Source of the DNA: a virus
Lineage: Duplodnaviria; Caudoviricetes
Direction: 5' to 3' (one strand)
Length of the DNA: 64,000 bases
IMG/VR virus record: IMGVR_UViG_3300044695_004869
Shown: positions 20,118-36,901 of the stretch, piece by piece
Numbering within the stretch: the stretch's first letter is position 1
How the letters are laid out: each line of letters starts with the position of its first letter
Position numbers and translations under genes: made by a program
Notes under the pieces: generated by a model
What the model was told of the DNA's origin: nothing
The model's database searches: none
What the model saw: the letters and a program-made list of their open reading frames with translations, nothing else

Positions 20118-21829
20118 TTTACCATAATCATATAATGTTGAGTTCCCCCATAAGTTAATCCGTTTGAGACATATGTTCCAAAGTCATACACTCCACCGGT
20201 TGTTGTTTCTCCACCACACCAAGCACCTGAATAATAAAAGGCGGCACCACAATAAACAGTAGCCATTCCACCCCATCCTCCTCCATACCCTGCATAACCA
20301 CAACAATCTCTCATATAGTAAATATTATTATTTGTACCTGTTGTTGTATATCCAACTGCCCCTTGCATACCTGGATAATCCGTTGTACCGTAAACAGCAG
20401 TGTTACTTTTTATTGTGGAATTAGTGTATGATTGTTGAGTATCGGAACCAAAAAATGTTGAGTAGTTTATGGAAGATACTTTATAAATAAACGGACCCCA
20501 ACTATTATCCACGTTAGTTCTTTGGTTACCAAAAATGAAAGAGGTAAACGTTGCATTTCCGTCCCATATTTCTCCCCATCCTAATTGATATGCCTTAGAA
20601 AAATCATTTATATTACCTACCGTACCACCTTTCCAACCCCAGTTTTCACCATCTAAGTTTACTGATGGGGCACTTCTAGCGATTAGCGTCCACCCTCCAC
20701 CATCAGTTGTCATATCACAATGAACTTGATATGGTGATGAGGTCGGTCCACCAGGATAAACCCAATACAATCCGTCATATCCCGCAAGTTGTGGAAATGT
20801 GTCTATAATATCTTTACAAGTTTTACAAGTATTGAAAAATGATGGCCCACTATTTCTTAATGTTCGTGTGATTTCTGTTTGAGATAAAGCTCGGTTGTAA
20901 ATTGCCCATCTATATATGTTACCTTTCCACATATTATCACCTCTACCTAAATACTGAGTACCTCCATTAGTATCATAATATGGAGTTCCTCCAGCAAAAG
21001 ATCCTGCTGATATTGCATCGTGATAATATATTTGAGCTTGGGGGGTAATTGTTATAACCCCTAAATGATATCTTGTGGTACTTACAGTTACGGCATTAGA
21101 TACTCCACCGGCATAATTAGAACTAAAATGATAATATAATTGTGATGGGTTATTTGTTGGACTATATAAATAAAAATTAAAACTTCTACCAGATCCCGCA
21201 ACTCCAATCATACACCTAAATTGACTATTAAAATCTGTAAGAGCATCTATCTTATACCAAACCGCAATTGTTATACCCGCGGACCAAGTTATATTATTAA
21301 AATTATTGGAGTTCGCAATTGAAATTAAATCATCTGTACCATCAAAAGAAAATGTCCCCGTGGTACTATTCCAAGACGTACCATTAGACAAAGTACCATT
21401 TCCAACACTACCACTATTCATTAATGGGTAAAGTGTGGATCCATTTTTAGGGTATGATGAAACACAACTACTGTCGACTAAATATACTAATCCATTAGTG
21501 ATAACCGCATCATAATCTTTATCTAGTAAGAATTTATCTGTTTGAGTAATATAATAATTTAAACATTCATTCGCTGTTGTATAATTTGTACCTGCAATTT
21601 TGTTAGTTAAATCAATTAATTGAGTGTCGTTCGATGGTACATATATTGATGGACCATTGGATGTCTTATTAAGATATATTGTATATCCACCACGAGGAGG
21701 TGAGATACCATTCCAATAACCTGAGGTACTTGTAGGTCCTTTTCCTACATCATTCGTACCAATCCAAAAGTCACCCTTTTTAAGAGCCAATGTTTGGGCC
21801 GTCGCACTATATTTTATTGAATTTGGCAT
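20114..21829 (-). CDS. LamG-like plus fibrinogen C-terminal (FReD/intelectin-like) domain protein
   Basis: LamG motifs (FSFDGTDD, IYNRALSQTEI), then CKDI...DGLYWVYP...YQVHCDMTTDGGGWTLIAR. Confidence 0.8.
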   Translation of the reverse strand: MPNSIKYSATAQTLALKKGDFWIGTNDVGKGPTSTSGYWNGISPPRGGYTIYLNKTSNGPSIYVPSNDTQLIDLTNKIAGTNYTTANECLNYYITQTDKFLLDKDYDAVITNGLVYLVDSSCVSSYPKNGSTLYPLMNSGSVGNGTLSNGTSWNSTTGTFSFDGTDDLISIANSNNFNNITWSAGITIAVWYKIDALTDFNSQFRCMIGVAGSGRSFNFYLYSPTNNPSQLYYHFSSNYAGGVSNAVTVSTTRYHLGVITITPQAQIYYHDAISAGSFAGGTPYYDTNGGTQYLGRGDNMWKGNIYRWAIYNRALSQTEITRTLRNSGPSFFNTCKTCKDIIDTFPQLAGYDGLYWVYPGGPTSSPYQVHCDMTTDGGGWTLIARSAPSVNLDGENWGWKGGTVGNINDFSKAYQLGWGEIWDGNATFTSFIFGNQRTNVDNSWGPFIYKVSSINYSTFFGSDTQQSYTNSTIKSNTAVYGTTDYPGMQGAVGYTTTGTNNNIYYMRDCCGYAGYGGGWGGMATVYCGAAFYYSGAWCGGETTTGGVYDFGTYVSNGLTYGGTQHYMIMVK

Positions 21830-21842
21830 TTAATCTTTATTT

Positions 21843-21850
21843 TATAAATA
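21843..21850 (-). promoter_or_regulatory. TATTTATA motif (putative late promoter element)
   Basis: 13 nt upstream of the ATG at 21829. Confidence 0.55.
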
Positions 21851-21886: not shown

Positions 21887-24814
21887 ATGGAAAAGATTAA
21901 ATTATTATACTTAACACCCCACCTATCAACAGGGGGTATGCCTCAATTCGTCTTAAAAAGAATTCAATCATTACAAGAATATAAAGATCAGATTGAGATA
22001 TTTTTAGTTGAATACTCTCAATTCAGTTCAACATATGTTGTACAAAGAGATCAAATTATAAAATTATTAGGAAATAATCACTTCTTCACGTTAGGCGGAA
22101 CTGATGAGGTTGACAAAAAAAATATGTTGATTGACATCTTAAAAAACAATAAGATTGATATTCTTCATTCAGAAGAAATGATTGATGGATTTGAATCGTT
22201 TAATAAAGTTCCAATTGATCTACTAAACCAAATTTACTCTAACGATAGAACTTGGAGAATTATTGAGACGTGTCATAATATTTGGTTTAACCCACTATCA
22301 GATAAAAAATTACATCCTGACGCTTATTCTCTTGTAACACCATATCATATGGAGGTTTCTTTTAAAGATACCCCCCCAATGAAATTTCTATCAACATATC
22401 CATATGAAAACAAAGTAACACCTATCTTAGCGGAAAATGAAATCTATGGTGATTTCAAACAATTACCTCTTATACATAAAATAAAAGTTAGAGAAGAACT
22501 TGGTTTGGATATGTTTAAAACTCACGTATTAAATGTGGGATTATGGACAAGTGGTAAAAATCAAGGTGAGGGTGTTGAGGTCGCAAGAACTTTGGTTGAA
22601 TCTAATCCTGATATTCAATTCCATTTTATTGGAAATCAAGCACCAAACTTTGAGGACTATTGGGGTCCGATTATGAAGAACTTACCATCAAATGTTAAAG
22701 TATGGGGTGAAAGAAATGATGTTGATAAATTTATGCAAGCCTCCGATGTTTTAATGTTTAATTCAACTTGGGAATGTAATCCTTTGGTTATTAGAGAATC
22801 TATTAACTATGGTATGAAAATATTAACAAGAAATCTACCACAATATATGGGAATGTTTGATAAATACATTAAACCAATTAGTGGTGAGATCGAAGACATT
22901 TCAAAACAATTAGTTAAACTTATTAATAATGAACACACATATGACATACCAAACGATACTGATTTTGGTGATAACCTTTTGTCAATGTATCGTATTGTTC
23001 TAAATGAACAAATAAGACATAACGAACCAATTAAAAATGATTACATTTATACACAACATTATGTGTGTCAACCATTTTTTGAATTTAGAGGTCAAAGTGA
23101 AAATAAGTTTTTAATTAAAATGTTTGATGGTGATGACAATCTTATTTATAGTAATACGTTATCAATTAATAGTTGGATTAAATTAAATAGAGAATATTAT
23201 ACAGATTGGAGAACAGAGGTGTGGGAAAATGATGAATTGATTTATGAAAATAAAATTAACTTAGAAGGAAAAAGAGTTTATATATCGTTCGGATCAAAAT
23301 CATTAGGGGATACAATGGCTTGGATTCCTTATGTTGAGGAATTTAGATTAAAACATAAATGCGAATTAATTGTCTCGACATTTATGAACCAACTATTTGT
23401 TGATCAATATCCAAATATTGAATTTGTTGATCCGGGAAATGTTGTTATGAATATTCATGCCCAATATAGAATAGGGTGGTTCTATAATGAAGATGGTTCC
23501 GTAAATTATAATATGACACCAAATGATTATAAAAAACAACCATTACAAAAAACCGCAACAGATATATTAGGTCTTGAATATAATGAGATAAAACCAAAAC
23601 TTAAATTACCAAATGTTCCAAAAAAGAAAAAAGTCGGTATTGGATTTCACTCAACGGCGCAGTCAAAATATTGGAATAACCCAAATGGATGGCAAGAAGT
23701 TATTGATTATCTTATAAATTTAGGATACGAATGTATGATTTATTCTAAAGAGGGGGATGGGTATATGAATAACCATTACCCAAAAGGAGTAACTATTTTT
23801 GAAGGGGGTGACCTACAAAAAGTAATTAATGATCTTGTTACTTGCGAATTCTTTATTGGTTTGGGATCAGGGTTATCTTGGTTAGCGTGGGCTTGTGAAT
23901 TACCGATAGTTTTAATATCAGGATTTAGTGAGAAATGGGCAGAAACAACTTTAGACACATATAGAGTTATTAATGAAAATGTTTGTCACGGATGTTTTAA
24001 TTCGGAAAAATTAGATGCGGGAGATTGGAATTGGTGTCCATTACATAAAGGTACCAATAGAATGTTTGAATGTACAAAACAAATTACATCTCAAATGGTT
24101 ATTTCTGAAATAAATAAAATTCTTAAAAAAGAAAATCTTCCTGTTTTTGATTGGGGTTGGATGAATACAGATATCATTAATGCCCAATATCATAAAGAAG
24201 TTATGTACAATGAAATTTTTATTGATAAGGTTTATGAAAGATTTTTTGAGGTTGAGGAAGGTGATATTGTATTTGATATTGGATCAAGTGTTGGTCCTTT
24301 TACAAAATCAATTTTACATAAAAAACCAAAGCACGTATTCTGTATTGAACCAAGTACCTCCGAATTTAAAACTTTAGTTAAAAACACCTTAGGTTATCCT
24401 GTAACACAAATAAATAAAGGTATTGGTTTTACAAACGGGATTGTTGAATCTAATGAACTTTTTGGTGGGGAAACACATATGGAATCTATAAATTTTAAAA
24501 AACTATTGGATCTTTATGGAATTGAAAAAATTGATTTCTTAAAAACAGATTGTGAAAGTGGTGAATATGAAATCTTTAGAGATGAAAACGTTGAATTCAT
24601 TAAGAATAATGTTAAAAAGATTTCAGGTGAGTGGCACTTAAGAACGGATGAAAGTAGAGAAAAATTCAGACATTTTAGAGATAATGTATTACCTAACTTT
24701 GATAATTACCAAATATTCTCTGTTGATAATATTGATATCAAATGGGAATTGTGGACCGAAAGATTTCTTGAATGGTATGACGAAATAATTATCTATATTG
24801 ATAATAGAAAATAA
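21887..24814 (+). CDS. Tri-domain fusion: GT4-like + Aah/TibC-type protein O-heptosyltransferase + FkbM methyltransferase
   Basis: GT4: STGGMPQF...ASDVLMFNSTWECNPLVIRES. BAHT: LEGKRVYISFGSKSLGDTMAWIPY...FIGLGSGLSWLAW...CHGCFN...WCPLHKGTNRMFECTKQI. FkbM: FDIGSSVG, IEPS, IDFLKTDCESGE. The likely start is the ATG at 21887 (the ORF track extends to 21866). Confidence 0.85.
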   Translation: MEKIKLLYLTPHLSTGGMPQFVLKRIQSLQEYKDQIEIFLVEYSQFSSTYVVQRDQIIKLLGNNHFFTLGGTDEVDKKNMLIDILKNNKIDILHSEEMIDGFESFNKVPIDLLNQIYSNDRTWRIIETCHNIWFNPLSDKKLHPDAYSLVTPYHMEVSFKDTPPMKFLSTYPYENKVTPILAENEIYGDFKQLPLIHKIKVREELGLDMFKTHVLNVGLWTSGKNQGEGVEVARTLVESNPDIQFHFIGNQAPNFEDYWGPIMKNLPSNVKVWGERNDVDKFMQASDVLMFNSTWECNPLVIRESINYGMKILTRNLPQYMGMFDKYIKPISGEIEDISKQLVKLINNEHTYDIPNDTDFGDNLLSMYRIVLNEQIRHNEPIKNDYIYTQHYVCQPFFEFRGQSENKFLIKMFDGDDNLIYSNTLSINSWIKLNREYYTDWRTEVWENDELIYENKINLEGKRVYISFGSKSLGDTMAWIPYVEEFRLKHKCELIVSTFMNQLFVDQYPNIEFVDPGNVVMNIHAQYRIGWFYNEDGSVNYNMTPNDYKKQPLQKTATDILGLEYNEIKPKLKLPNVPKKKKVGIGFHSTAQSKYWNNPNGWQEVIDYLINLGYECMIYSKEGDGYMNNHYPKGVTIFEGGDLQKVINDLVTCEFFIGLGSGLSWLAWACELPIVLISGFSEKWAETTLDTYRVINENVCHGCFNSEKLDAGDWNWCPLHKGTNRMFECTKQITSQMVISEINKILKKENLPVFDWGWMNTDIINAQYHKEVMYNEIFIDKVYERFFEVEEGDIVFDIGSSVGPFTKSILHKKPKHVFCIEPSTSEFKTLVKNTLGYPVTQINKGIGFTNGIVESNELFGGETHMESINFKKLLDLYGIEKIDFLKTDCESGEYEIFRDENVEFIKNNVKKISGEWHLRTDESREKFRHFRDNVLPNFDNYQIFSVDNIDIKWELWTERFLEWYDEIIIYIDNRK

Positions 24815-24819
24815 TCCTT

Positions 24820-24848
24820 AACCCTCACCTAAAAAGTGGGGGTTTTTT
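24820..24848 (+). terminator. Intrinsic terminator between convergent genes
   Basis: AACCCTCAC-CTAAAAA-GTGGGGGTT hairpin followed by a T-run, directly after the stop at 24814. Confidence 0.75.
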
Positions 24849-24849
24849 A

Positions 24850-25548
24850 TTAACAAGGACCTTGATATGCTAGTGTAGAGGATCCGTCCCAATAGTAACA
24901 ATCAGTTCCGTCACTATAAAAGGCATCTCTCGCCGGAATTTTACAAAGATTATCATCAAATATTCCATCGGCATTTGCCAAATTACACGTACCACCACAA
25001 GGTAAGTGTAGGTAATATACTGCCGTTGTATTACAAGAACAAGCTTCCCCACATTCCGGACCATAACATAATTCTCTTTCACAACAAACTTCAACACAAG
25101 GTGTTGGAGTCGGAGTTGGTGTTGGCGTTGGACTTGATCCGGCCGATGTTGCCGTTGGTGTTGCCGTTGGAGCCGAGGTATTTGATGGAGTAACGGGTGG
25201 TGTTGATGCCGGTGTTGCCGGAGGAGTTCTTGTTGGTGTAGGTGTCATTGTTGGTGTACTAGGTGGTGTTTTTGTTGGGGTCGTCGTTGGTGTTACAGTT
25301 CTTGTTGGTGTATTAGTTGGTGTATTAGTCGGCGTATTAGGTGGTGTTCTTGTTGGAGTTGCGGTTCTTGTTGGTGTCATAGTTTGTGTTGGTACAGGAC
25401 TTCCTCCCGGTGTTCTTGTTGGTGTCACTGTTGGTGTTGGTGAACAGAAATCAATGTCATCCATTTTACTTGCATTTGCTTTAAGTATATCATCAACTTT
25501 GCTGATATTAGCACATAAAACGTCATTAACTTTACTTACTGTTGGCAT
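24850..25548 (-). CDS. Small Pro/Thr-rich mucin-like protein with Cys-rich C-terminus
   Basis: N-terminal SKV-x-D repeat, about 115-aa TPT tract, C-terminal [11 protein letters not shown]...C. Confidence 0.75.
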
Positions 25549-25558
25549 ATTAAATAAA

Positions 25559-28500
25559 TTATACTAACTCAATCCAATCTTGTGAAGGGTTAAAGTAAAC
25601 TTCGTCAGTTGCAATTGCGTATCCGCAAACTCTCACAATATCGGCGGTTCCCGTTGGTTGAGTGGATGTTAGAGTATCTCCTGCGGTCGATAGGTAAACC
25701 GGAGCACCAATAGTAAATGACCAAGACGTATTTTTAAAGTAACCTCTTACTAACATACCTCTGTTATAAGCCACTGCATTAGTACATATACCAAGTAAGT
25801 TTCTTGATGCAGATGCGCTATCCGCATCTGCCGACAACCAAGTGTTGGATGATGATAAATATCTAACTTGTCCAACGGCGGGACTAAATCCTACATCACC
25901 AATAGATAATAATTCACCATAATGGTCACCATTTGACGCTAATCTTGATACAGGATCAGTGTTGATTGTATAATATCCTGATGTTCTTGTAACTTGGAAG
26001 TGATCTGATATTGTTGCACTTCCCGTAACATTTAGTAGGTTTGTTATTCCATTAAATGTTAAGTTAGGTTCTGAGTTTGCCGAATTTGCGGTTCCATTAG
26101 CGGTTAATATGTTATTATCTGTTGTTGGAGAAATTGAAGTAAATCCTGTACCTGATGTACCATTTGTTCCGGTAGTACCATTGGTACCTGATGTACCGTT
26201 TGTTCCTGAAGTTCCATTAGTTCCGTTTGTTCCATTTGTACCATTTGTTCCTGAAGTTCCATTAGTTCCGTTTGTTCCGTTGGTCCCATTTGTTCCTGAA
26301 GTTCCATTAGTACCGTTGGTTCCATTAGTTCCATTTGTACCTGATGTCCCATTAGTACCGTTCGTACCATTTGTTCCATTAGTTCCATTTGTACCTGATG
26401 TCCCATTAGTACCGTTCGTACCATTTGTTCCATTAGTTCCATTTGTACCTGATGTCCCATTAGTACCGTTCGTACCATTTGTTCCATTAGTTCCATTTGT
26501 ACCTGATGTCCCATTAGTACCGTTGGTTCCATTAGTTCCATTTGTACCTGATGTCCCATTAGTACCGTTGGTTCCATTAGTTCCATTTGTACCTGATGTC
26601 CCATTAGTACCATTAGTACCTGATGTTCCGGCAGCTCCGCTTACACCAGATGTCCCATCAGTTCCTGATGTACCATTTGTTCCGTTAGTCCCTGATGTTC
26701 CGTTTGTTCCACTAGTACCGTTAGTCCCTGACGTTCCATTGGTTCCGTTAGTTCCCGATGTTCCATCGGTTCCGCTAGTACCATCGGTTCCACTTGTTCC
26801 GTTTGTACCATTCGTTCCTGAAGTACCATTCGTTCCTGAAGTTCCATTAGTACCGTTGGTTCCTGATGTTCCGTTAGTACCGTTGGTTCCTGATGTTCCG
26901 TTAGTACCGTTGGTTCCTGATGTTCCGTTAGTACCGCTAGTTCCATTAGTACCATTGGTTCCTGAAGTTCCATTTGTTCCACTTGTTCCGTTTGTACCTG
27001 ACGTTCCATTAGTACCATTGGTTCCTGAAGTTCCATTAGTACCATTGGTTCCTGATGTTCCGTTAGTTCCTGAAGTTCCATTTGTGCCGTTTGTACCAGA
27101 AGTACCGTTGGTTCCATTTGTTCCTGAAGTTCCATTAGTACCGTTGGTTCCTGATGTTCCATTTGTACCGTTGGTACCATTTGTACCGCTAGTTCCGTTA
27201 GTACCTGATGTACCATTTGTTCCGCTAGTACCATTCGTTCCATTTGTTCCTGAAGTACCGTTAGTACCCGAAGTACCATTTGTGCCCGAAGTTCCATTTG
27301 TTCCGTTAGTACCTGAAGTCCCATTGGTTCCATTTGTTCCTGAAGTTCCGTTTGTACCACTTGAACCATTCGTTCCGTTAGTACCTGAGGTTCCATTGGT
27401 TCCATTTGTACCATTTGTCCCCGAAGTCCCGTTTGTACCACTTGATCCGTTTGTTCCTGAAGTTCCATTTGTTCCATTCGTACCGCTAGTTCCATTTGTT
27501 CCTGACGTTCCATTTGTACCGTTTGTTCCTGACGTTCCATTTGTTCCGCTAGTTCCATTAGTACCATTTGTTCCCGAAGTTCCATTTGTTCCATTCGTAC
27601 CGCTAGTTCCATTTGTTCCTGACGTTCCATTTGTACCGTTTGTTCCTGACGTTCCATTTGTTCCGCTAGTTCCATTAGTACCATTTGTTCCCGAAGTTCC
27701 GTTAGTTCCGCTAGTACCATTTGTTCCATTCGTACCTGAAGTACCATTAGTGCCATTAGTCCCATTCGTACCCGAAGTTCCATTTGTTCCTGACGTTCCA
27801 TTCGTACCATTTGTTCCTGAAGTCCCATTAGTTCCACTTGAACCATTTGTTCCATTCGTACCTGAAGTACCATTAGTACCATTAGTCCCATTCGTACCCG
27901 AAGTTCCATTTGTTCCTGACGTTCCATTCGTACCATTTGTTCCTGACGTTCCATTCGTACCATTTGTTCCTGAAGTCCCGTTAGTTCCAGATGTTCCGTT
28001 CGTACCTGAAGTCCCGTTAGTTCCATTTGTTCCACTAGTACCATTCGTACCTGATGTACCATTAGTACCGTTGGTACCACTTGAACCATTTGTTCCTGAG
28101 GTACCATTAGTCCCATTTAAACCACTTACACCTGAAGTTCCGTTAGTTCCAGATGTTCCATTTGTTCCGCTAGCACCATTTGTCCCGTTGGTCCCTGAAG
28201 TTCCATTCGTACCCGATGTACCATTAGTTCCGCTAGTACCGTTCGTACCATTAGTTCCGCTAGTACCGTTCGTTCCGTTAGTTCCGTTAGTACCGGATGT
28301 TCCATTAGTACCTGAAGTTCCATTAGTACCATTTGTTCCTGATGTCCCATTTGTTCCTGATGTTCCATTTGTCCCGTTAGTACCCGAAGTTCCATTAGTT
28401 CCATTAGTTCCTGAAGTTCCATTCGTTCCGCTAGTTCCATTTGTACCTGATGTTCCATTCGTTCCGTTTGTACCTGAAGTTCCATTTGTACCTGATGACC

Positions 28501-31500
28501 CATTAGTTCCATTCGTACCTGATGTACCATTAGTACCGTTCGTACCATTTGTTCCGTTTGTTCCGCTAGTACCATTTGTGCCTGACGTTCCATTTGTTCC
28601 GTTAGTACCATTCGTACCAGATGTTCCATTCGTACCGTTGGTTCCATTTGTTCCGTTAGTACCTGACGATCCATTTGTACCATTAGTTCCCGAAGTACCA
28701 TTTGTTCCACTAGTACCATTTGTTCCATTAGTACCCGAAGTCCCATTAGTTCCATTTGTACCGTTTGTTCCATTCGTACCCGAAGTTCCATTTGTACCGT
28801 TCGTTCCACTTGTTCCATTTGTCCCCGAAGTTCCATTAGTACCATTAGTTCCATTGGTTCCGTTTGTACCTGAAGTTCCGTTAGTTCCATTTGTCCCCGA
28901 TGTCCCGTTGGTACCACTTGAACCATTTGTTCCGTTAGTACCTGAGGTTCCGTTTGTACCATTTGTTCCATTCGTGCCGCTAGTACCATTTGTTCCGTTA
29001 GTACCTGAAGTTCCATTCGTTCCATTAGTACCGTTAGTTCCTGAAGTCCCATTTGTACCATTAGTTCCTGATGTACCATTAGTTCCGTTAGTCCCGTTTG
29101 TTCCATTAGTACCGCTTGTACCATTCGTTCCATTTGTTCCTGAAGTGCCGTTAGTTCCATTCGTACCATTTGTACCATTAGTTCCTGATGTACCATTAGT
29201 TCCGTTAGTCCCGTTTGTTCCATTAGTACCGCTTGTACCATTCGTTCCATTTGTTCCTGAAGTGCCGTTGGTTCCATTTGTACCGTTAGTACCGTTGGTT
29301 CCCGAAGTTCCATTTGTACCGTTAGTTCCATTGGTCCCGCTCGTACCATTAGTACCGTTGGTACCGCTTGAACCATTTGTCCCTGATGTTCCATTAGTTC
29401 CGTTTGTACCGGATGTTCCGTTAGTTCCATTCGTACCATTTGTTCCGTTTGTACCGGATGTTCCGTTAGTTCCATTCGTACCATTTGTTCCCGAAGTTCC
29501 GTTAGTACCGCTAGTTCCATTTGTACCGTTGGTCCCATTAGTACCTGATGTTCCGTTAGTCCCACTAGTTCCATTTGTTCCGTTCGTACCATTGGTTCCT
29601 GATGATCCATTGGTTCCATTTGTTCCTGAGGTTCCATTTGTACCTGAAGTTCCATTAGTACCGTTTGTACCATTAGTTCCTGAAGTTCCATTCGTACCAT
29701 TTGTTCCGTTAGTACCGTTAGTACCGCTAGTTCCATCCGTTCCGTTCGTACCATTTGTTCCATTCGTACCTGAGGTCCCGTTAGTTCCATTCGTACCGTT
29801 TGTACCATTTGTTCCTGAGGTTCCGTTTGTTCCATTGGTTCCTGAAGTTCCATTCGTACCATTTGTTCCGCTAGTTCCGTTTGTCCCGTTTGTTCCATTT
29901 GTTCCGCTAGTTCCGTTTGTCCCGTTTGTTCCATTCGTACCGTTGGTTCCACTAGTTCCATTCGTACCATTTGTTCCGCTAGTTCCATTAGTACCATTCG
30001 TTCCACTAGTTCCATTTGTACCATTTGTTCCATTCGTACCATTAGTACCGTTGGTTCCCGAAGTACCATTTGTTCCGCTAGTTCCGTTTGTACCATTTGT
30101 TCCTGAGGTTCCATTTGTACCATTTGTTCCGTTGGTTCCGCTAGTTCCGTTTGTACCATTCGTTCCATTCGTTCCATTCGTTCCATTCGTACCCGAAGTT
30201 CCGTTGGTTCCTGAAGTACCGTTCGTACCATTCGTCCCTGAAGTTCCATTTGTTCCGTTTGTACCATTAGTTCCTGAGGTTCCATTTGTTCCGTTTGTAC
30301 CGCTAGTTCCATTAGTACCGTTGGTACCATTTGTTCCGTTAGTACCTGAAGTTCCATTTGTACCATTCGTTCCATTAGTTCCATTTGTACCGTTAGTACC
30401 TGATGTTCCGTTTGTTCCCGACGTGCCGTTAGTACCATTTGTTCCGTTAGTACCATTCGTTCCATTTGTACCGCTAGTGCCGTTTGTTCCTGAAGTCCCA
30501 TTTGTACCGCTCGTACCGTTTGTTCCATTCGTACCATTTGTTCCAGAAGTTCCGTTAGTACCACTTGAACCATTTGTACCTGATGTCCCATTGGTTCCAT
30601 TTGTACCGTTTGTTCCTGATGATCCGTTAGTACCATTTGTCCCATTCGTACCGTTCGTACCTGAAGTACCATTTGTTCCGCTAGTACCATTCGTACCGTT
30701 AGTTCCATTGGTTCCATTTGTACCTGATGTTCCGTTTGTACCTGAAGTACCGTTAGTTCCATTAGTACCCGATGTGCCATTTGTTCCGCTAGTTCCATTA
30801 GTACCGTTGGTTCCTGATGATCCGTTTGTACCATTTGTACCTGAAGTCCCATTAGTTCCTGACGATCCATTCGTACCATTTGTACCGCTAGTTCCATTTG
30901 TTCCGTTTGTGCCTGAGGTCCCATTAGTTCCGTTTGTACCTGAAGTACCGTTAGTTCCATTTGTACCGTTAGTTCCTGATGTTCCGTTTGTTCCTGAAGT
31001 ACCGTTAGTACCATTAGTACCCGATGTTCCGTTAGTACCGCTAGTCCCATTCGTTCCATTAGTACCGTTAGTTCCTGATGTACCATTCGTACCCGATGTT
31101 CCGTTTGTTCCATTTGTGCCGCTAGTTCCATTTGTACCTGAAGTTCCATTTGTACCATTCGTTCCTGACGTTCCATTAGTTCCATTAGTACCGTTTGTTC
31201 CCGATGTCCCGTTCGTACCATTTGTTCCACTAGTACCATTAGTTCCGTTCGTTCCGTTCGTACCATTTGTTCCTGACGTTCCATTCGTACCATTTGTCCC
31301 ATTAGTTCCGTTTGTACCTGAAGTACCGTTAGTTCCATTTGTTCCGTTAGTACCATTAGTCCCTGAAGTACCATTCGTTCCGCTAGTTCCGTTAGTACCA
31401 TTTGTTCCATTCGTCCCTGATGTTCCGTTAGTACCATTAGTTCCTGACGTTCCATTTGTTCCTGAAGTACCATTTGTACCATTGGTTCCTGAAGTTCCGT

Positions 31501-34500
31501 TGGTCCCGCTCGTACCATTTGTTCCATTTGTACCTGAAGTACCATTGGTTCCGTTAGTTCCTGAAGTTCCATTCGTACCTGAAGTACCATTTGTCCCTGA
31601 TGTCCCGTTAGTTCCATTCGTTCCGTTTGTACCTGAAGTACCATTAGTTCCGTTCGTACCACTTGTACCATTCGTACCGCTAGTTCCATTTGTACCATTA
31701 GTTCCATTCGTTCCGTTTGTACCTGAAGTTCCATTTGTACCATTAGTACCGTTTGTACCATTGGTTCCTGAAGTTCCGTTGGTTCCACTTGAACCATTAG
31801 TTCCGTTCGTTCCGCTCGTACCGTTTGTTCCATTTGTTCCTGACGTTCCATTAGTTCCGTTAGTACCATTTGTTCCCGATGTTCCGTTCGTACCGCTAGT
31901 ACCGTTTGTTCCATTCGTACCGCTAGTACCATTAGTTCCGTTTGTACCTGAAGTACCGTTAGTCCCATTTGTTCCTGAAGTTCCATTAGTACCCGAAGTA
32001 CCGTTGGTTCCATTCGTACCTGACGTACCATTAGTACCATTTGTTCCGTTAGTTCCATCTGTTCCTGAAGTTCCGTTAGTTCCATTCGTACCGTTTGTTC
32101 CATTCGTACCGTTTGTTCCACTAGTCCCGTTGGTACCCGAAGTTCCATTAGTTCCGTTAGTCCCTGACGTACCATTTGTACCATTGGTTCCTGATGTTCC
32201 ATCAGTACCGCTTGACCCTGAAGTACCGTTGGTACCACTTGAACCATTCGTTCCGTTTGTACCTGAAGTTCCATTCGTACCATTCGTACCCGAAGTTCCA
32301 TTAGTACCGTTAGTACCGTTAGTCCCCGACGTACCATTAGTTCCGTTAGTCCCTGAAGTTCCGTTTGTACCATTCGTACCGTTTGTTCCTGAAGTACCGT
32401 TTGTTCCTGATGTTCCGTTTGTTCCATTAGTACCTGACGATCCATTCGTACCATTCGTACCTGAAGTACCGTTAGTTCCGTTCGTACCTGAGGTTCCATT
32501 AGTACCGGAAGTCCCATTAGTTCCGTTCGTACCATTAGTACCGCTAGTTCCTGAAGAACCACTTGTTCCATTAATTATACCTAACGTAGTTTGACCATAT
32601 GAATAATGAGTTGTACCTTCGGTTACGAAAGTAATTGTATGTGATTGATTTGAGGTATTTGTAGCTCGAACTTTAACAAATATCCTATCTGTTGTATTGA
32701 TTGAAAATCCTCCTTGAAATCCATCAGATAATACCATTGATGGGTTTGGTGAATTTGTTGTTACAGGTGCTGGGTCTGTTGAAAATAATAAAGTTTCAGT
32801 CCCACCTGTTGTTCTTGAATAAACTTCACAGAATATATCAAAACTTGCATTATTGTTTTCTTTATACGCGTGTAAGAAGAAAGACCAAATTCCCGCAGGT
32901 ATGGTTGATACATTCGGATAAGTTGAGGGTGTTAAATATGATTGAATAGTTGATGTTACACCATTCGCAATAGTAACCGTAACTGTTTGTTGCGACCCTG
33001 ATGTCGGTATTGGTGAAAATTCTTTATAAGGGGTTTGTGTTACTGATTCGTTAAAGAAATAAACAGCACCACCTGAAATACCATTAACACCGCTAGTACC
33101 GTTCGTACCATTAGTTCCCGATGTTCCATTAGTACCATTCGTACCTGAAGTTCCATTTGTTCCGTTAGTACCACTTGTACCATCTGTCCCATTAGTTCCA
33201 TTCGTACCGTTTGTTCCGTCAGTACCATTGGTTCCTGAGGATCCGTTTGTACCTGAAGTTCCATCCGTTCCGTTCGTACCATTTGTTCCATTCGTACCTG
33301 AAGTTCCATTCGTACCTGAGGTCCCGTTAGTTCCATTCGTACCGTTTGTACCATTTGTTCCTGAGGTTCCGTTTGTTCCTGAGGTTCCGTTTGTTCCATT
33401 GGTTCCTGAAGTCCCATCCGTTCCGTTCGTACCATTTGTTCCACTAGTCCCGTCAGTTCCATTTGTTCCTGAAGTTCCATCCGTTCCATCCGTTCCGTTC
33501 GTACCATTTGTTCCACTTGAACCATCTGTACCATTTGTTCCACTTGAACCATCTGTACCATTAGTACCTGAAGTTCCGTCAGTCCCATTTGTTCCACTTG
33601 AACCATCTGTACCATTAGTTCCGTTTGTACCTGATGTTCCATTAGTTCCGTTTGTACCTGATGTTCCATCGGTTCCATTTGTTCCTGAAGTTCCATTTGT
33701 ACCATTGGTTCCTGATGTTCCATCTGTACCGTTTGTTCCGTTTGTTCCATTGGTTCCTGAGGATCCGTTTGTTCCATTGGTACCTGAAGTCCCATTTACT
33801 CCGGATATTCCACTAGTTCCATCTGTCCCACTCGTTCCGTCTGTTCCGCTCGTACCATTTGTTCCGCTCGTGCCATCTGTACCGCTCGTACCATCTGTAC
33901 CGTTTGTTCCGCTTGTACCATCTGTTCCGCTCGTGCCATCTGTTCCGCTCGTGCCATCTGTTCCGCTCGTACCATCTGTTCCGTTGGTTCCTGAAGTTCC
34001 ATTAGTACCACTTGACCCATCTGTTCCATTAGTTCCTGATGTTCCGTCTGTACCATTAGTCCCTGAAGTACCATTTGTTCCACTTGACCCATCCGTACCA
34101 TTAGTTCCGCTGGTTCCGTCGCTACCACTAGTACCATCTGTTCCGTTTGTTCCTGAAGTTCCGTCAGTTCCCGACGTTCCATTAGTTCCGTCAGTACCGC
34201 TAGTACCATCTGTTCCGTTTGTTCCTGAAGTCCCATCAGTTCCGTCAGTACCACTAGTTCCATCAGTACCATCAACACCTGAAAGACCACTTGTTCCATC
34301 TGTACCACTACTTCCATCCGTACCGCTAGTTCCATCGGTACCATTAGTTCCGTTTGTACCATTCGTTCCTGACGTTCCATCCGTTCCTGACGTTCCATCC
34401 GTACCTGAAGTTCCATCCGTACCGTTTGTACCGCTAGTTCCGTCTGTTCCTGAACTTCCATCCGTTCCACTAGTTCCGTCAGTACCATTAGTTCCACTAG

Positions 34501-36901
34501 TTCCGTCAGTCCCACTAGTTCCGTCAGTTCCACTAGTACCGTCAGTTCCACTAGTTCCGTCAGTACCACTAGTTCCGTCAGTACCATTCGTTCCGTTTGT
34601 TCCTGAAGTTCCATCTGTACCGTTTGTGCCCGAACTACCATCCGTACCATTAGTTCCGCTAGTTCCGTCCGTACCATCTGTCCCGTTAGTCCCCGAAGTT
34701 CCGTCTGTACCGTTTGTTCCACTAGTTCCATCTGTCCCACTCGTTCCGTCTGTCCCCGAAGTTCCGTCTGTTCCATTAGTTCCGCTTGAACCATCTGTTC
34801 CATTAGTTCCGCTTGTACCATCTGTTCCATTAGTTCCGCTCGTACCATCTGTTCCGTTCGTTCCATTAGTACCATTAGTTCCCGATGTTCCATCTGTCCC
34901 TGAAGTTCCATCCGTTCCGTTTGTTCCACTTGTACCATCCGTTCCGTTAGTACCTGAAGTACCATCTGTTCCATTTGTTCCGCTTGAACCATCCGTTCCA
35001 TTAGTACCTGATGTTCCGTCTGTACCGTTGGTTCCTGAAGTTCCATCTGTACCATTTGTACCATTTGTACCTGAAGTCCCATCCGTTCCACTTGAACCAT
35101 TTGTTCCATCAGTTCCCGAACTACCATTTGTACCATCAGTGCCGCTAGTTCCATCTGTACCTGAAGTACCACTCGTTCCATCGGTTCCGCTAGATCCATT
35201 TGTTCCATCAGTACCTGAAGTACCATCTGTTCCGCTTGAACCATCCGTGCCGTTTGTTCCTGAAGACCCATTTGTTCCATCTGTTCCGCTTGTCCCGTCA
35301 GTCCCTGAAGACCCATTAGTACCATCTGTTCCGCTTGTCCCTGAAGTACCGTCAGTTCCTGAAGTACCGTCAGTTCCGTTAGTTCCACTTGTGCCATCAG
35401 TTCCGCTAGTTCCATTTGTACCATTAGTTCCATTTGTACCGCTAGTGCCATTGGTACCATTAGTTCCTGACGTTCCATTGGTACCATTAGTTCCTGACGT
35501 TCCATCCGTTCCATTAGTACCGTTTGTTCCCGATGTACCATTCGTTCCGTTTGTTCCGTTAGTACCATTTGTTCCTGAAGTTCCATTTGTACCATTAGTC
35601 CCTGAAGTTCCATCCGTACCATTAGTCCCTGAAGTTCCATCCGTACCATTAGTTCCGCTAGTTCCGTCCGTTCCTGAAGTACCATCAGTTCCACTAGTTC
35701 CATCTGTTCCGCTTGTTCCATCAGTTCCACTAGTACCATTTGTTCCATTTGTCCCTGAAGTCCCATCAGTACCACTTGTTCCATCAGTACCACTTGTTCC
35801 ATCTGTACCGTTAGTTCCTGAAGTTCCGTCTGTTCCTGAAGTTCCGTCTGTTCCTGAAGTTCCGTCCGTACCTGAAGTTCCATCTGTACCACTTGTTCCA
35901 TTGGTACCACTTGTTCCATCGGTACCACTAGTTCCGTTTGTACCATTAGTTCCACTTGAACCATCCGTACCATCTGTACCGCTTGTTCCATCTGTACCGC
36001 TTGTTCCATCTGTACCACTTGTTCCATCTGTACCGCTTGTTCCATCTGTACCGCTTGTTCCATCTGTTCCGCTAGTTCCATTAGTACCGCTAGTTCCATC
36101 TGTTCCGTTAGTTCCACTTGTCCCATCGGTACCGCTAGTTCCATCTGTTCCACTAGTACCATTTGTTCCTGAACTACCATCTGTACCATCTGTACCATCT
36201 GTACCGCTAGTACCATTTGTACCACTAGTTCCGTTTACTCCTGAAATTCCGCTTGTACCATCTGTTCCGCTCGTACCATCTGTTCCTGAAGTACCGTTAG
36301 TCCCTGAAGTTCCGTTAGTCCCTGAAGTTCCGTTGGTTCCGTTTGACCCATCCGTCCCATTTGTTCCAGAACTTCCATTAGTACCATTTGTACCTGAAGT
36401 TCCGTCGGTACCATTAGTTCCTGAGGATCCGTTTGTTCCATCAGTTCCCGATGTCCCATTAGTACCTGATGTTCCGTTGGTACCTGAAGAACCGTTCGTT
36501 CCGGAAGATCCATTAGTTCCCGAAGAACCGTCAGTTCCGGAAGATCCTGATGAACCACTAGTTCCATCTGATCCATTCGTCCCATTCGTTCCATTAGTAC
36601 CTGAAGTACCATCTGTTCCGTTAGATCCGGAAGTTCCATCAGAACCCGAAGTACCATCTGTCCCTGATGTTCCGTCTGTTCCTGATGTTCCATTATTACC
36701 ACTGGTTCCATTTGTACCTGATGTACCATTAGTACCTGATGTGCCAACACTTGAGATTGCCGCACCTACTTGTGCGATTGTTGCTTTATAAGAAGATCCT
36801 GCCGGATTTTGGGACGTGTCACCAGTGATAACGATATGTATTAAATCATTAAGTGATACACCTGTGGCAATTGTCCTATCCGTCAGTCGTTGAAATCCCA
36901 T
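25559..36901 (-). CDS. Giant (3780 aa) Gly-Thr-X tripeptide-repeat collagen-like putative fibre protein
   Basis: Short N-terminal domain, two Gly-X-Y blocks ([12 protein letters not shown]) separated by a globular insert of about 165 aa, and a C-terminal domain of about 195 aa ending DIVRVCGY...[12 protein letters not shown]. Frame intact over 11.3 kb. Confidence 0.85.
26340..26610. repeat. Exact tandem array inside the fibre gene (3 x 54 bp then 45-bp units)
   Basis: CCTGATGTCC recurs at 26340, 26394, 26448, 26502, 26547 and 26592. Confidence 0.85.
27459..27692. repeat. Exact 117-bp tandem duplication
   Basis: The unit starting GAAGTTCCATTTGTTCCATTCG occurs at 27459 and 27576. Confidence 0.85.
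29049..29269. repeat. Direct repeat of about 104 identical bp with 117-bp period
   Basis: 29049..29152 equals 29166..29269. Confidence 0.8.
33071..36745 (-). repeat. Asp-rich Gly-Thr-(Asp/Ser/Asn) coding repeat block (about 1225 aa)
   Basis: 9-bp periodicity, with GTD abundant. Confidence 0.9.

What the first reader, a model, noticed from the sequence alone, without database searches (positions are those of the whole stretch)
21887..24814. Aah/TibC-type protein O-heptosyltransferase in a phage, fused between GT4 and FkbM domains
Seen: LEGKRVYISFGSKSLGDTMAW and the four-Cys CHGC...WCPLHKG...FECTK motif. Established: Aah/TibC enzymes are iron-containing heptosyltransferases that hyper-glycosylate Ser residues in repeats of the autotransporter adhesins AIDA-I and TibA. 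No autotransporter is present here. The gene is the only plus-strand gene in the first 45 kb, has its own terminator, and lies about 0.75 kb from the Ser/Thr-rich 3780-aa repeat gene. Inference: a single polypeptide that attaches, extends and methylates a glycan on phage fibres. No ADP-heptose synthesis genes are in the window, so the donor is host-derived, encoded elsewhere, or not heptose.
Basis: partly seen in the sequence, partly recalled or inferred. Interest (0 to 1): 0.75.

Follow-up and report, generated by a model that had tools for sequence, protein, structure and literature searches.

The report
Phage three-domain fibre-glycosylating heptosyltransferase
A giant lake-water phage encodes one 975-residue enzyme that joins a sugar-extending domain, a TibC/Aah-type protein heptosyltransferase and a methyltransferase, and this enzyme type sits again and again beside Gly-Thr/Ser-Ser collagen-like genes in phages and bacteria, pointing to an undescribed way of sugar-coating fibres.

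Summary
ORF 21887-24814 (+) encodes GT4 (aa 1-372), a complete TibC/Aah-type BAHT module (aa 387-745; TIGR04414 287 bits against a cut-off of 200; TibC fold TM 0.82-0.84) and an FkbM methyltransferase (aa 757-975).

- **Catalytic residues.** The catalytic Asp, the Thr/Lys/Trp donor contacts and all four iron-finger Cys are kept. TibC's adenine-contact Arg-286 is Val.
- **Clade.** The phage domains and some bacterial ones form one clade apart from autotransporter-type BAHTs. Arg-286 is mostly lost in this clade.
- **Acceptor.** All 33 tree rows with a G-[S/T]-x collagen-like neighbour lie in this clade (33/61 inside, 0/52 outside). Forty of 80 phage BAHT loci have such a neighbour, against 0 of 80 control loci. 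Bacterial members flank secreted (GTS)n proteins, and so does the gene in cultured Microcystis phage Mel-JY01.
- **Donor.** Several phage lineages place HldE-like heptose kinase and adenylyltransferase genes directly after the BAHT gene. The window and its nearest near-complete relatives have none, so the donor is probably host ADP-heptose. This is unproven.

Best reading: cytoplasmic O-glycosylation of the adjacent 3780-aa fibre, followed by extension and methylation. No biochemistry exists. This is a new variant of a known kind. The scan had noted this same stretch once before in an overlapping window, not on other DNA.

The parts
21887..24814 (+). Whole gene, 975 aa: GT4 + BAHT + FkbM fusion with no signal peptide-like N-terminus
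   Evidence: AF2 model has mean pLDDT 91.6. About 970-aa homologues with the same architecture dominate the top 120 of 4506 hits.
21887..23002 (+). N-terminal GT-B glycosyltransferase domain (GT4-like, aa 1-372). E296/E304 (EX7E) are conserved in at least 90% of 73 homologues.
   Evidence: PF00534 37.4 bits. Conserved columns. Fold neighbours are the retaining GT4 enzymes BshA, MshA, PimB', PimA and WaaG, TM 0.6-0.7.
23045..24121 (+). BAHT module (aa 387-745): beta-barrel 387-456 and catalytic domain 463-745. Residues: D475 (TibC D110), T590, K594, W665, iron-finger C700/C703/C717/C729, thumb tip Y626/M627. V646 stands in place of TibC R286 and G660 in place of P300.
   Evidence: TIGR04414 287 bits. 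Alignment to TibC. Residue roles from PMC4358343. Mapping. Foldseek to 4rap/4rb4: E 1.6e-36, TM 0.82-0.84.
24155..24811 (+). C-terminal FkbM-type SAM methyltransferase domain (aa 757-975), after a low-confidence linker at aa 748-752
   Evidence: PF05050 27.5 bits. TIGR01444 35.9 bits. phrog_8156 methyltransferase. Rossmann-like alternation in the model.
24820..24850 (.). G+C-rich hairpin followed by a T-run, between the convergent enzyme gene and the 232-aa ORF. Terminator-like.
24850..25548 (-). 232-aa ORF directly downstream of the collagen-like gene. No family match. Relatives found in only 5 of 80 related loci.
25559..36901 (-). 3780-aa collagen-like fibre gene, the proposed acceptor. About 1121 Gly-X-Y triplets. 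X is Thr in 1057. Y is Asn 607, Ser 388, Asp 124. It has a globular insert and a C-terminal domain.
   Evidence: The C-terminal domain is shared with fibre genes of related loci.
17539..18477 (-). Second, small GT9-like gene (312 aa) with an ALGDT motif and no beta-barrel. Possibly part of the same glycosylation set.
   Evidence: PF01075 E 1.7e-13. Best NCBIfam hit is TIGR04414 at only 41 bits. Relatives in 19 of 80 BAHT loci. Pairwise similarity to the BAHT domain is not significant.

Best explanation
The gene encodes a soluble, cytoplasmic, trifunctional protein-glycosylation enzyme.

Its central domain is a true structural and catalytic relative of TibC/Aah. It belongs to a separate clade whose genomic partners are not autotransporters but proteins built of Gly-Thr/Ser-Ser(Asn/Asp) triplets.

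Most likely this domain transfers a heptose from host-made ADP-heptose to Ser hydroxyls (the Y position of G-T-S) of the adjacent 3780-aa collagen-like tail or side fibre, before or during fibre assembly. The fused retaining GT4 domain then adds a second sugar, and the FkbM domain O-methylates the glycan.

Shown: domain identities, fold, conserved catalytic and iron-finger residues, the clade, the gene linkage to collagen-like genes, and the linkage to heptose-activation genes in relatives.

Inferred: the acceptor protein and residue, the sugar, the order of the three steps, and any ring-shaped oligomer.
For: **Domain and fold**
- TIGR04414 scores 287 bits against a cut-off of 200. TibC matches at E about 1e-64.
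- Foldseek finds TibC at E 1.6e-36, TM 0.82-0.84, over the whole TibC chain including the beta-barrel.

**Residues**
- D475, T590, K594, W665 and four Cys align with TibC D110, T226, K230, W305 and C339/342/358/370. Their roles are given in PMC4358343.
- D, K and W are invariant in 143 diverse domains.
- The GT4 EX7E pair and the FkbM motifs are conserved in 73 homologues.

**Acceptor linkage**
- 40 of 80 phage BAHT loci have a G-[S/T]-x collagen ORF within 10 kb. That is 15 of 28 clusters at 80% identity.
- The collagen ORF is often directly adjacent. It is upstream or downstream, on either strand, and beside different domain architectures.
- The control, 80 PhoH-centred loci of the same kind of phage, has none.
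- Converse test: of loci picked by the collagen repeat, 11 of 21 with S/T-dominant collagen hold a BAHT. Of the other 27 loci, 1 does.
- In bacterial genomes, stand-alone BAHTs of the same clade are flanked by signal-peptide or lipoprotein (GTS)n/(GSS)n proteins. Examples come from Methylococcales, Arenicellales, other Gammaproteobacteria and Burkholderiaceae.
- On a tree of 113 domains, all 33 collagen-linked rows lie in one clade of 61 (support 99). None of the 52 rows outside it is collagen-linked.
- The cultured Microcystis phage Mel-JY01 has an unannotated G-[T/S]-S frame of at least 1016 aa, 1.7 kb upstream of its GT4...BAHT gene.
- Where no collagen is present (L041), the BAHT operon still follows a 2789-aa tail-fibre gene and its assembly chaperone.

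**Donor**
- HldE-II-like and HldE-I-like genes lie directly downstream of the BAHT gene in several lineages. In L020 they sit between the BAHT gene and the collagen gene.
- GmhA, HldE-I and HldE-II relatives occur in the complete 373-kb relative G001.

**Precedent**
- TibC modifies Ser, not Thr, and accepts peptides.
Against: - There is no biochemical or mass-spectrometric evidence for any glycan on any of these fibres.
- Arg-286, which contacts adenine N1 in TibC and whose Ala mutant loses activity, is Val here. It is R in only 10 of 61 members of this clade, against 49 of 52 outside it.
- The window has no heptose genes. The nearest near-complete relatives (G026/G027, 93-97% complete) and Mel-JY01 have no GmhA/HldE-like genes. 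The window's own genome could not be searched.
- About half of the related phage loci have no collagen-like neighbour within 10 kb.
- In this phage Y is more often Asn than Ser.
- Gene adjacency among related phages is partly inherited synteny, so the locus counts overstate independence.
- Other Thr-rich or lectin-like fibre genes lie nearby and could be acceptors.
Confidence: 0.55

Rival explanations
1. The enzyme glycosylates virion proteins, but the collagen-like fibre is not its main acceptor. It could act on other proteins of the module, such as the three ConA/LamG-type fibre proteins or the Thr/Pro-rich proteins, or on several of them.
For: LamG-type genes at 16521-21829 flank the gene on the other side, and their relatives occur in 21-23 of 80 BAHT loci. 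Half of the BAHT loci lack collagen neighbours. In L041 the neighbour is a non-repetitive 2789-aa tail fibre.
Against: The recurring partner across phage and bacterial members of the clade is the G-[S/T]-S repeat, not LamG domains. The bacterial loci contain only the repeat protein next to the BAHT gene.
Confidence: 0.15
2. The BAHT domain uses a donor other than ADP-heptose, for example a GDP- or UDP-sugar made by the phage's own 46-64 kb sugar island. In that case the enzyme works like a BAHT but is not a heptosyltransferase. This rival concerns the donor only and can hold together with the best explanation.
For: The adenine-specifying Arg-286 is Val and is lost in most of the clade. No heptose genes are in the window or in the closest relatives. 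The window encodes GDP-mannose 4,6-dehydratase, a GDP-fucose-synthase-like enzyme, two DegT aminotransferases and an acetyltransferase.
Against: Lineages whose BAHT also lacks the Arg carry HldE-like kinase and adenylyltransferase genes directly behind the BAHT gene or elsewhere in the genome. These are V in L037-L054 and the G001 lineage, and L in L020. The heptose O4 contact Trp and the beta-phosphate contacts Thr and Lys are invariant or nearly so.
Confidence: 0.25
3. The enzyme remodels the host envelope (LPS core or another glycan) during infection, as GT9 heptosyltransferases do. This could block superinfection or alter receptors. On this reading its place in the fibre module is incidental.
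For: GT9 is mainly an LPS family, with weak hits to WaaC/WaaF-type models.
Against: The match is to the protein-modifying BAHT subfamily, with its beta-barrel, thumb and iron finger. The score is 287 bits against 16 bits for LPS heptosyltransferase I. There is no membrane segment or signal peptide in the model. The linkage to repeat-protein genes in phages and bacteria is specific.
Confidence: 0.07

Closest known systems
TibC (ETEC) and Aah (DAEC): bacterial autotransporter heptosyltransferases, BAHT family, GT9-like, TIGR04414 (PMC4358343)
   Same: Same fold over the whole chain: beta-barrel, atypical GT-B, hairpin thumb and four-Cys iron finger (TM 0.82-0.84). About 35-40% identity. Same catalytic Asp and the same Thr/Lys/Trp donor contacts. 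Hydrophobic thumb tip and F368 equivalent are kept. Cytoplasmic. The gene lies next to the gene of a long repetitive surface protein.
   Different: Fused between GT4 and FkbM domains instead of standing alone. The neighbour is a collagen-like Gly-Thr-X fibre, not a beta-helical autotransporter. The adenine-contact Arg-286 is Val and the stereoselectivity position Pro-300/Ser-294 is Gly. It belongs to a separate clade on a long, well-supported branch. It is encoded by a lytic-type jumbo phage. Dodecamer formation and iron binding are untested.
Chlorovirus PBCV-1 A064R: virus-encoded three-domain enzyme with two glycosyltransferase domains and a methyltransferase that builds the capsid-protein glycan (from my own knowledge, not checked with the tools)
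   Same: One viral polypeptide that combines two sugar-transfer domains and a methyltransferase. It acts in the cytoplasm on the virus's own structural protein.
   Different: Eukaryotic virus. Unrelated GT folds. It extends an N-linked glycan and does not initiate on protein. There is no BAHT domain and no collagen-like acceptor.
Mycobacteriophage virion glycosylation (Freeman et al. 2023, seen only as reference 45 and a summary sentence in PMC12619734)
   Same: Phage-encoded glycosyltransferases that O-glycosylate the phage's own capsid and tail proteins.
   Different: Different GT families, short C-terminal acceptor tails, Gram-positive-type hosts. No heptose, no collagen-like repeats, no multidomain fusion.
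BclA collagen-like exosporium protein of Bacillus anthracis, with its GXT repeats O-glycosylated (from my own knowledge, not checked)
   Same: A prokaryotic collagen-like Gly-X-Thr filament whose hydroxyl residues carry short, partly methylated or unusual sugars.
   Different: The glycan is rhamnose and anthrose, added by unrelated enzymes. The repeats are proline-containing. It is bacterial, not viral.
LPS core heptosyltransferases WaaC/WaaF/WaaQ (GT9)
   Same: Same GT-B superfamily, and ADP-heptose as the probable donor.
   Different: Lipid-linked oligosaccharide acceptors. No beta-barrel, thumb or iron finger. Only 16-20 bits against these models.

Membership tests
BAHT (TibC/Aah, TIGR04414) | Scores above the curated cut-off of the family model | tested here: met
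   287.4 bits against a cut-off of 200, model positions 27-374 of 374
BAHT (TibC/Aah, TIGR04414) | Protomer fold: N-terminal beta-barrel, atypical GT-B catalytic domain, beta-hairpin thumb, finger insertion | tested here: met
   AF2 model pLDDT 91.6. Foldseek to 4rap/4rb4: E 1.6e-36, TM 0.82-0.84 over 381-390 residues.
BAHT (TibC/Aah, TIGR04414) | Catalytic base Asp-110 and donor contacts Thr-226, Lys-230, Trp-305 | tested here: met
   D475, T590, K594, W665. D, K and W are invariant in 143 domains.
BAHT (TibC/Aah, TIGR04414) | Arg-286 contacting adenine N1 (ADP specificity; R286A inactive in TibC) | tested here: not met
   V646 here. R in 49 of 52 autotransporter-type rows but in only 10 of 61 rows of the phage/GTS clade.
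BAHT (TibC/Aah, TIGR04414) | Four Cys of the 1Fe-0S iron finger | tested here: met
   C700, C703, C717 and C729 align with C339/342/358/370. Iron binding itself is not testable here.
BAHT (TibC/Aah, TIGR04414) | Ring-shaped dodecamer needed for activity | not testable with these tools
   Only indirect evidence: a hydrophobic thumb tip (Y626/M627) and the F368 equivalent are kept. The effect of the two fused domains is unknown.
BAHT (TibC/Aah, TIGR04414) | Partner gene is an autotransporter adhesin whose beta-helix repeats are the acceptor | tested here: not met
   No autotransporter in the window. The neighbour is a collagen-like G-T-X protein. A bona fide pair for comparison is the Salmonella plasmid BAHT next to AIDA-I.
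BAHT (TibC/Aah, TIGR04414) | Uses ADP-heptose as donor | not testable with these tools
   Indirect support: HldE-I/II-like genes lie directly behind BAHT genes of the same clade, and GmhA/HldE relatives occur in G001. None in the window or in the closest relatives.
GT4 (Glycos_transf_1, retaining GT-B) | Pfam model above the gathering score, two-lobe GT-B fold, conserved EX7E pair | tested here: met
   PF00534 37.4 bits against 26.4. E296/E304 conserved in at least 90% of homologues. Fold neighbours BshA, MshA, PimB', PimA and WaaG.
FkbM methyltransferase family | Family model above cut-off and a SAM-binding Rossmann core | tested here: inconclusive
   PF05050 27.5 bits against 22.7, so met. 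TIGR01444 35.9 bits against 37.7, just under. phrog_8156 methyltransferase. Confident alpha/beta model for aa 757-975. Substrate unknown.

The most novel reading that the evidence does not exclude
A previously unrecognised clade of iron-finger BAHT enzymes has (Gly-Thr/Ser-Ser)n collagen-like repeats as its natural acceptors. These repeats occur in the giant tail or side fibres of freshwater jumbo phages and in secreted lipoproteins of environmental Gammaproteobacteria. On this reading, proline-free collagen-like rods are decorated, and perhaps stabilised, by O-linked and then extended and methylated heptose. In phages a single three-domain enzyme does all of this. That would be a new class of BAHT substrate and a new kind of virion glycosylation.
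Probability: 0.4. Interest if true: 0.85.

Novelty: new variant of a known kind. Interest (0 to 1): 0.72.

Why it matters
BAHT enzymes are known only as partners of autotransporter adhesins in pathogens. The present evidence suggests a larger, mainly environmental and viral branch of the family with a different substrate class, namely Ser/Thr-rich collagen-like repeats.

The enzyme type is very common. It gave 4506 homologues and 768 clusters at 50% identity, and it was found in all 10 near-complete genomes examined in this group of lake phages.

If the reading holds, it would explain how proline-free Gly-Thr-X fibres up to thousands of residues long can be stable. It would add heptosylation to the few known cases of phage virion glycosylation. 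It would also bear on host recognition and on how such phages evade grazing or immunity. Finally, it would supply a compact attach-extend-methylate enzyme for glyco-engineering of repeat proteins. Microcystis phage Mel-JY01 offers a cultured system in which to test it.

Tried and rejected
1. **Complex prediction.** Two copies of the BAHT module (aa 386-750) gave no verdict. It says nothing either way about oligomerisation.
2. **Expression.** No RNA holder is listed among public runs. Twenty lake-water DNA runs hold the gene. This gives no information on expression.
3. **The window's own genome.** No whole genome is held, and metagenome records cannot be used as handles. I searched for GmhA homologues to find one on a 234,714-bp contig, the length of the longest contig that carries this gene. 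None was among the best 120. This is inconclusive, because clusters report only their longest contig.
4. **TATAAATA at 21843-21850 as a T4-type late promoter for this gene.** The motif is not enriched in the window (17 found, 14 expected). Its spacing, 14 nt from the minus-strand start at 21829, matches other minus-strand gene starts. I make no promoter claim.
5. **The sigma-70 scan.** It found no more sites than shuffled sequence.
6. **The small GT9 gene (17539-18477) as a paralogue of the BAHT domain.** Pairwise similarity is not significant, and its TIGR04414 hit is only 41 bits.
7. **Literature.** Searches for phage or collagen-like proteins together with BAHT, TibC or O-heptosyltransferase found nothing relevant. 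The library is incomplete.
8. **Does loss of Arg-286 argue against ADP-heptose?** I rejected this as a strong argument, because lineages with V or L at that position carry HldE-like genes.
Full report
**1. Observation**

The ORF at 21887-24814 (+) is real and encodes 975 aa. A TTG seven codons upstream is possible, but 73 homologues begin at the Met of the ATG.

Family scans give three domains:
- Glycos_transf_1 (GT4) at aa ~200-350, 37.4 bits against a cut-off of 26.4.
- TIGR04414 'autotransporter strand-loop-strand O-heptosyltransferase' at aa 406-745, E 1.5e-85, 287 bits against a cut-off of 200.
- FkbM methyltransferase at aa ~753-932. PF05050 scores 27.5 against 22.7. TIGR01444 scores 35.9, just below its 37.7 cut-off.

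The solved TibC chains 4rap/4rb4 match at E about 1e-64 over aa 405-746. The gene lies 745 bp from the 3780-aa repeat gene on the other strand. A hairpin plus T-run sits between the convergent genes. No heptose-synthesis gene is in the window.

**2. Anatomy**

An AlphaFold2 model built on 73 homologues has mean pLDDT 91.6. Its pTM is 0.51, so the mutual placement of the domains is uncertain. The model shows:
- a two-lobe GT-B domain (aa 1-372);
- a beta-barrel (387-456) followed by the BAHT catalytic domain (463-745);
- a short low-confidence linker (748-752);
- an alpha/beta methyltransferase domain (757-975).

Foldseek against the PDB returns all TibC chains first: E 1.6e-36, TM 0.82-0.84 normalised to TibC, 381-390 aligned columns, so the barrel is included. 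Next come the retaining GT4 enzymes BshA, MshA, PimB', PimA and WaaG for the N-terminal domain.

**3. Catalytic residues**

I used the roles described for TibC in PMC4358343 and the HMMER alignment. The phage enzyme keeps:
- the catalytic base (D475 = D110);
- the beta-phosphate contacts (T590 = T226, K594 = K230);
- the heptose O4 contact (W665 = W305);
- all four iron-finger cysteines (C700/703/717/729 = C339/342/358/370);
- F727 (= F368) and a hydrophobic thumb tip (Y626/M627 for F265/V266).

Two positions differ. V646 replaces R286, the residue that hydrogen-bonds adenine N1 and whose Ala mutant is inactive in TibC. G660 replaces P300 (Ser in Aah), the D,D/L,D-heptose selectivity position.

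In 143 diverse domains the D, K and W are invariant and the four Cys are present in about 97%. Position 286 is variable.

**4. How common, and in what forms**

A word-indexed search of 5.8 billion proteins found 4506 homologues of the BAHT region. The best 120 are nearly all ~970-aa GT4+BAHT+FkbM fusions at 75% identity or more, from metagenomes. Many are already auto-named 'autotransporter O-heptosyltransferase'.

An exhaustive profile-free search of 1.84 billion representatives found 768 clusters at E <= 1e-30. Their lengths run from 370 to 2033 aa, and some proteins carry two or three tandem BAHT catalytic domains.

In IMG/VR, 121 viral loci encode relatives. Architectures include:
- BAHT alone (~383 aa);
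- GT4+BAHT (~729 aa);
- an N-terminal domain plus BAHT (~700-930 aa);
- the three-domain form, and forms with a further methyltransferase domain.

Of 37 large viral records examined, 29 have a BAHT-type match, and so do all 10 records that are at least 90% complete.

The gene itself recurs in at least 20 lake-water metagenome runs and on 14 assembled contigs.

**5. The acceptor**

The neighbour gene encodes about 1121 Gly-X-Y triplets. X is Thr in 1057. Y is Asn 607, Ser 388, Asp 124. I tested whether this pairing is more than local synteny.

(a) Forward test.
- 40 of 80 viral BAHT loci (1.52 Mb) have an ORF with at least 15 G-X-Y triplets whose X is at least 70% Ser/Thr within 10 kb. Of 80 PhoH-centred loci from the same kind of phage (1.53 Mb), none has one (Fisher p 2e-15).
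- After clustering the BAHT domains at 80% identity, 15 of 28 clusters are positive.
- The collagen-like gene lies upstream or downstream, on either strand, often within 50-1500 bp, beside different BAHT architectures with only 47-75% identity to the window's domain.

(b) Converse test.
- Among 48 loci picked by the repeat or C-terminal domain of the fibre, 11 of 21 with S/T-dominant collagen hold a BAHT. Five of the ten without are cut off at the collagen gene.
- Of the remaining 27 loci, 1 holds a BAHT (p 1.4e-4).

(c) Bacteria.
- The genome collection holds at least 586 relatives.
- Among the 80 closest, 17 loci have G-X-Y repeat ORFs, 14 of them S/T-dominant. These typically flank a stand-alone ~375-aa BAHT directly.
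- The flanking proteins start with a signal peptide or a lipoprotein box and continue as (GTS)n/(GSS)n. Examples: Methylococcales L237, Arenicellales L252, Gammaproteobacteria L254/L255/L258, Burkholderiaceae L240.

(d) Tree.
- On a tree of 113 BAHT domains, all 33 rows with such a neighbour fall in one clade of 61 rows. It has SH-aLRT 99 and a stem of 0.49 substitutions per site.
- That clade contains every phage sequence plus these bacterial ones.
- None of the 52 rows outside it has such a neighbour. Those rows are from Enterobacteriaceae, Burkholderia, Lentisphaerota and Selenomonadales, and include a Salmonella BAHT next to AIDA-I.
- Arg-286 is kept in 49 of 52 rows outside the clade and in only 10 of 61 inside.

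(e) A cultured phage.
- Microcystis phage Mel-JY01 has a 1226-aa GT4...BAHT protein, annotated only as 'methyltransferase FkbM'.
- It has an unannotated G-[T/S]-S frame of at least 1016 aa 1.7 kb upstream, and a second small GSS/GTS ORF downstream.

(f) Loci without collagen.
- In L041 the BAHT operon follows a 2789-aa tail-fibre gene and a tail assembly chaperone.

What the partners share is Ser in the third position of G-[T/S]-S. TibC modifies Ser, not Thr, and works on peptides. Ser in G-T-S is therefore the most likely acceptor.

The counts are inflated by shared ancestry. The recurrence in different arrangements and in bacteria is the stronger argument.

**6. The donor**

The window has no heptose genes. 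In relatives the picture is mixed.
- The complete 373-kb relative G001 has direct terminal repeats and an enzyme 64% identical over its full length. It encodes three relevant genes, dispersed in the genome, and no GmhB:
  - a GmhA relative (NF001628, 239 bits);
  - an HldE kinase-domain relative (TIGR02198, 300 bits; next best family 57 bits);
  - an HldE adenylyltransferase-domain relative (TIGR02199, 107 bits; TagD 74 bits).
- In L020/L023 an adenylyltransferase-like and a kinase-like gene, plus a cupin, lie between the GT4-BAHT gene and the collagen-like gene.
- In L037-L054 and L058 the same two genes follow a stand-alone BAHT. Their best NCBIfam families are again the two HldE domains (90-101 and 117-132 bits), below the curated cut-offs.
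- The kinase-like gene is in 20 of 80 BAHT loci and in 0 of 80 control loci.
- These lineages have V or L at the Arg-286 position. Loss of the Arg is therefore compatible with a phage investment in ADP-heptose.

Against this, only one lineage among the ten near-complete records has GmhA and a close HldE-I. The closest near-complete relatives of the window are G026/G027. They carry a 977-aa fusion, an adjacent 3300-aa G-T-N/S gene and a PhoH 86% identical to the window's. They have no HldE-I/II-like gene even at E <= 1e-5, and neither does Mel-JY01.

The window's phage therefore most likely draws on a host pool. Alternatively, and less likely, it uses another nucleotide sugar. Its own remaining ~170 kb could not be searched.

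**7. Mechanism proposed, and rivals**

- Shown: three intact catalytic modules in one soluble polypeptide.
- Inferred: the BAHT module initiates O-glycosylation of Ser in the fibre's G-T-S triplets in the cytoplasm. The retaining GT4 module adds a second sugar. The FkbM module methylates.

The modular gain and loss of GT4 and FkbM around a constant BAHT core fits an initiator with optional extenders.

Rivals:
- other fibre-module proteins as acceptors;
- a non-heptose donor;
- host envelope remodelling.

Details are given in the Rival explanations section. None is excluded, and the last fits the BAHT-specific fold and the repeat-protein linkage least well.

**8. Comparison and novelty**

The enzyme works like TibC/Aah and passes most membership tests. 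It fails two: the adenine-contact Arg and the autotransporter partner. It also sits in a distinct clade.

I found no paper linking BAHTs to phages or to collagen-like proteins. The only trace is automatic annotation.

I rate it a new variant of a known kind. The same stretch was noted once before by this scan in an overlapping window of the same genome.

**9. Limits**

- Everything on function is inference from sequence, fold and gene neighbourhood.
- The control set is one family of related phages.
- The regex for collagen-like ORFs misses Gly-rich or Pro/Ala-type collagens. L021, for example, has a G-A/P-type fibre with the same C-terminal domain 5 kb away.
- The attempts on oligomer state and on expression gave no usable answer.

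Noticed in passing
L237 11145-12038 (-), L252 12062-12538 (-), L254 8450-8893 and 11175-11795 (-), L258 8455-8844 and 11198-11824 (-), L240 11178-11543 (-): In bacterial chromosomes and MAGs (Methylococcales, Arenicellales, other Gammaproteobacteria, Burkholderiaceae), stand-alone ~375-aa BAHT genes are flanked by small proteins. These have a signal peptide or lipoprotein box followed by (GTS)n/(GSS)n and an acidic tail. This looks like an undescribed bacterial enzyme-substrate pair.
   Followed up: partly
L083 (Microcystis phage Mel-JY01, PP395634.1) 2-3049 (+) and 9444-9983 (+): A G-[T/S]-S collagen-like frame of at least 1016 aa and a second small GSS/GTS ORF are not annotated in the GenBank record. 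The record instead calls minus-strand hypothetical proteins across them. The 1226-aa 'methyltransferase FkbM' next to them contains GT4 and a C-terminal BAHT domain.
   Followed up: partly
L020 12177-13680 (+); L041 13302-14436 (+): Split HldE-like genes lie directly behind phage BAHT genes, with the adenylyltransferase first and a shortened ~250-aa kinase second. In L020 a 128-aa cupin (sugar-isomerase-like) precedes them and the collagen-like gene follows.
   Followed up: partly
window 17539-18477 (-); also L002 8989-9975 and 12894-13835, L021 9022-9987: A family of small (~310-330 aa) GT9-like proteins with an ALGDT motif and a C-terminal '...FECHP' remnant, lacking the beta-barrel. It recurs beside the three-domain gene in relatives. 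Shorter BAHT-like genes (303-311 aa, 108-127 bits) are the only match in six other large phage records.
   Followed up: partly
window 25559-36901 (-); L087 8378-16255; L084 13673-22928: The collagen-like gene of what is otherwise the same phage (identical 975-aa enzyme) differs in length between assemblies: 2625 aa complete in one, about 3750-3780 aa in others. Either the repeat number really varies or the assemblies collapsed the repeats.
   Followed up: no
P0124 (924 aa), P0131, P0135, P0137, P0211, P0241: Some metagenomic proteins carry two or three tandem BAHT catalytic domains in one chain.
   Followed up: no
L041 826-9195 (+): A 2789-aa phage tail-fibre gene (Gp53-like C-terminal domain) contains a Hint/intein-like segment at aa ~2209-2511. 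A tail assembly chaperone gene follows it.
   Followed up: no
window 7005, 16461, 21843, 37249, 41086 (+ strand coordinates): TATAAATA on the + strand (TATTTATA in gene direction) lies 5-14 nt upstream of the start codons of five minus-strand structural genes. Overall the octamer is not enriched (17 found, 14 expected), but the fixed spacing is odd for a -10-type promoter.
   Followed up: partly
window 15207-15953 (+) inside 14648-16447 (-): A public gene caller chose a 248-aa + strand ORF and a truncated 162-aa minus-strand ORF, where a 599-aa minus-strand ORF is open. Local GC skew is strongly positive (0.33), so the true coding strand deserves a check.
   Followed up: no
P0273 relatives: The closest cellular relatives of the phage GmhA of the G001 lineage are from Flavobacteriales/Bacteroidia MAGs (~58% identity). 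This hints at the host or gene source of that lineage.
   Followed up: no
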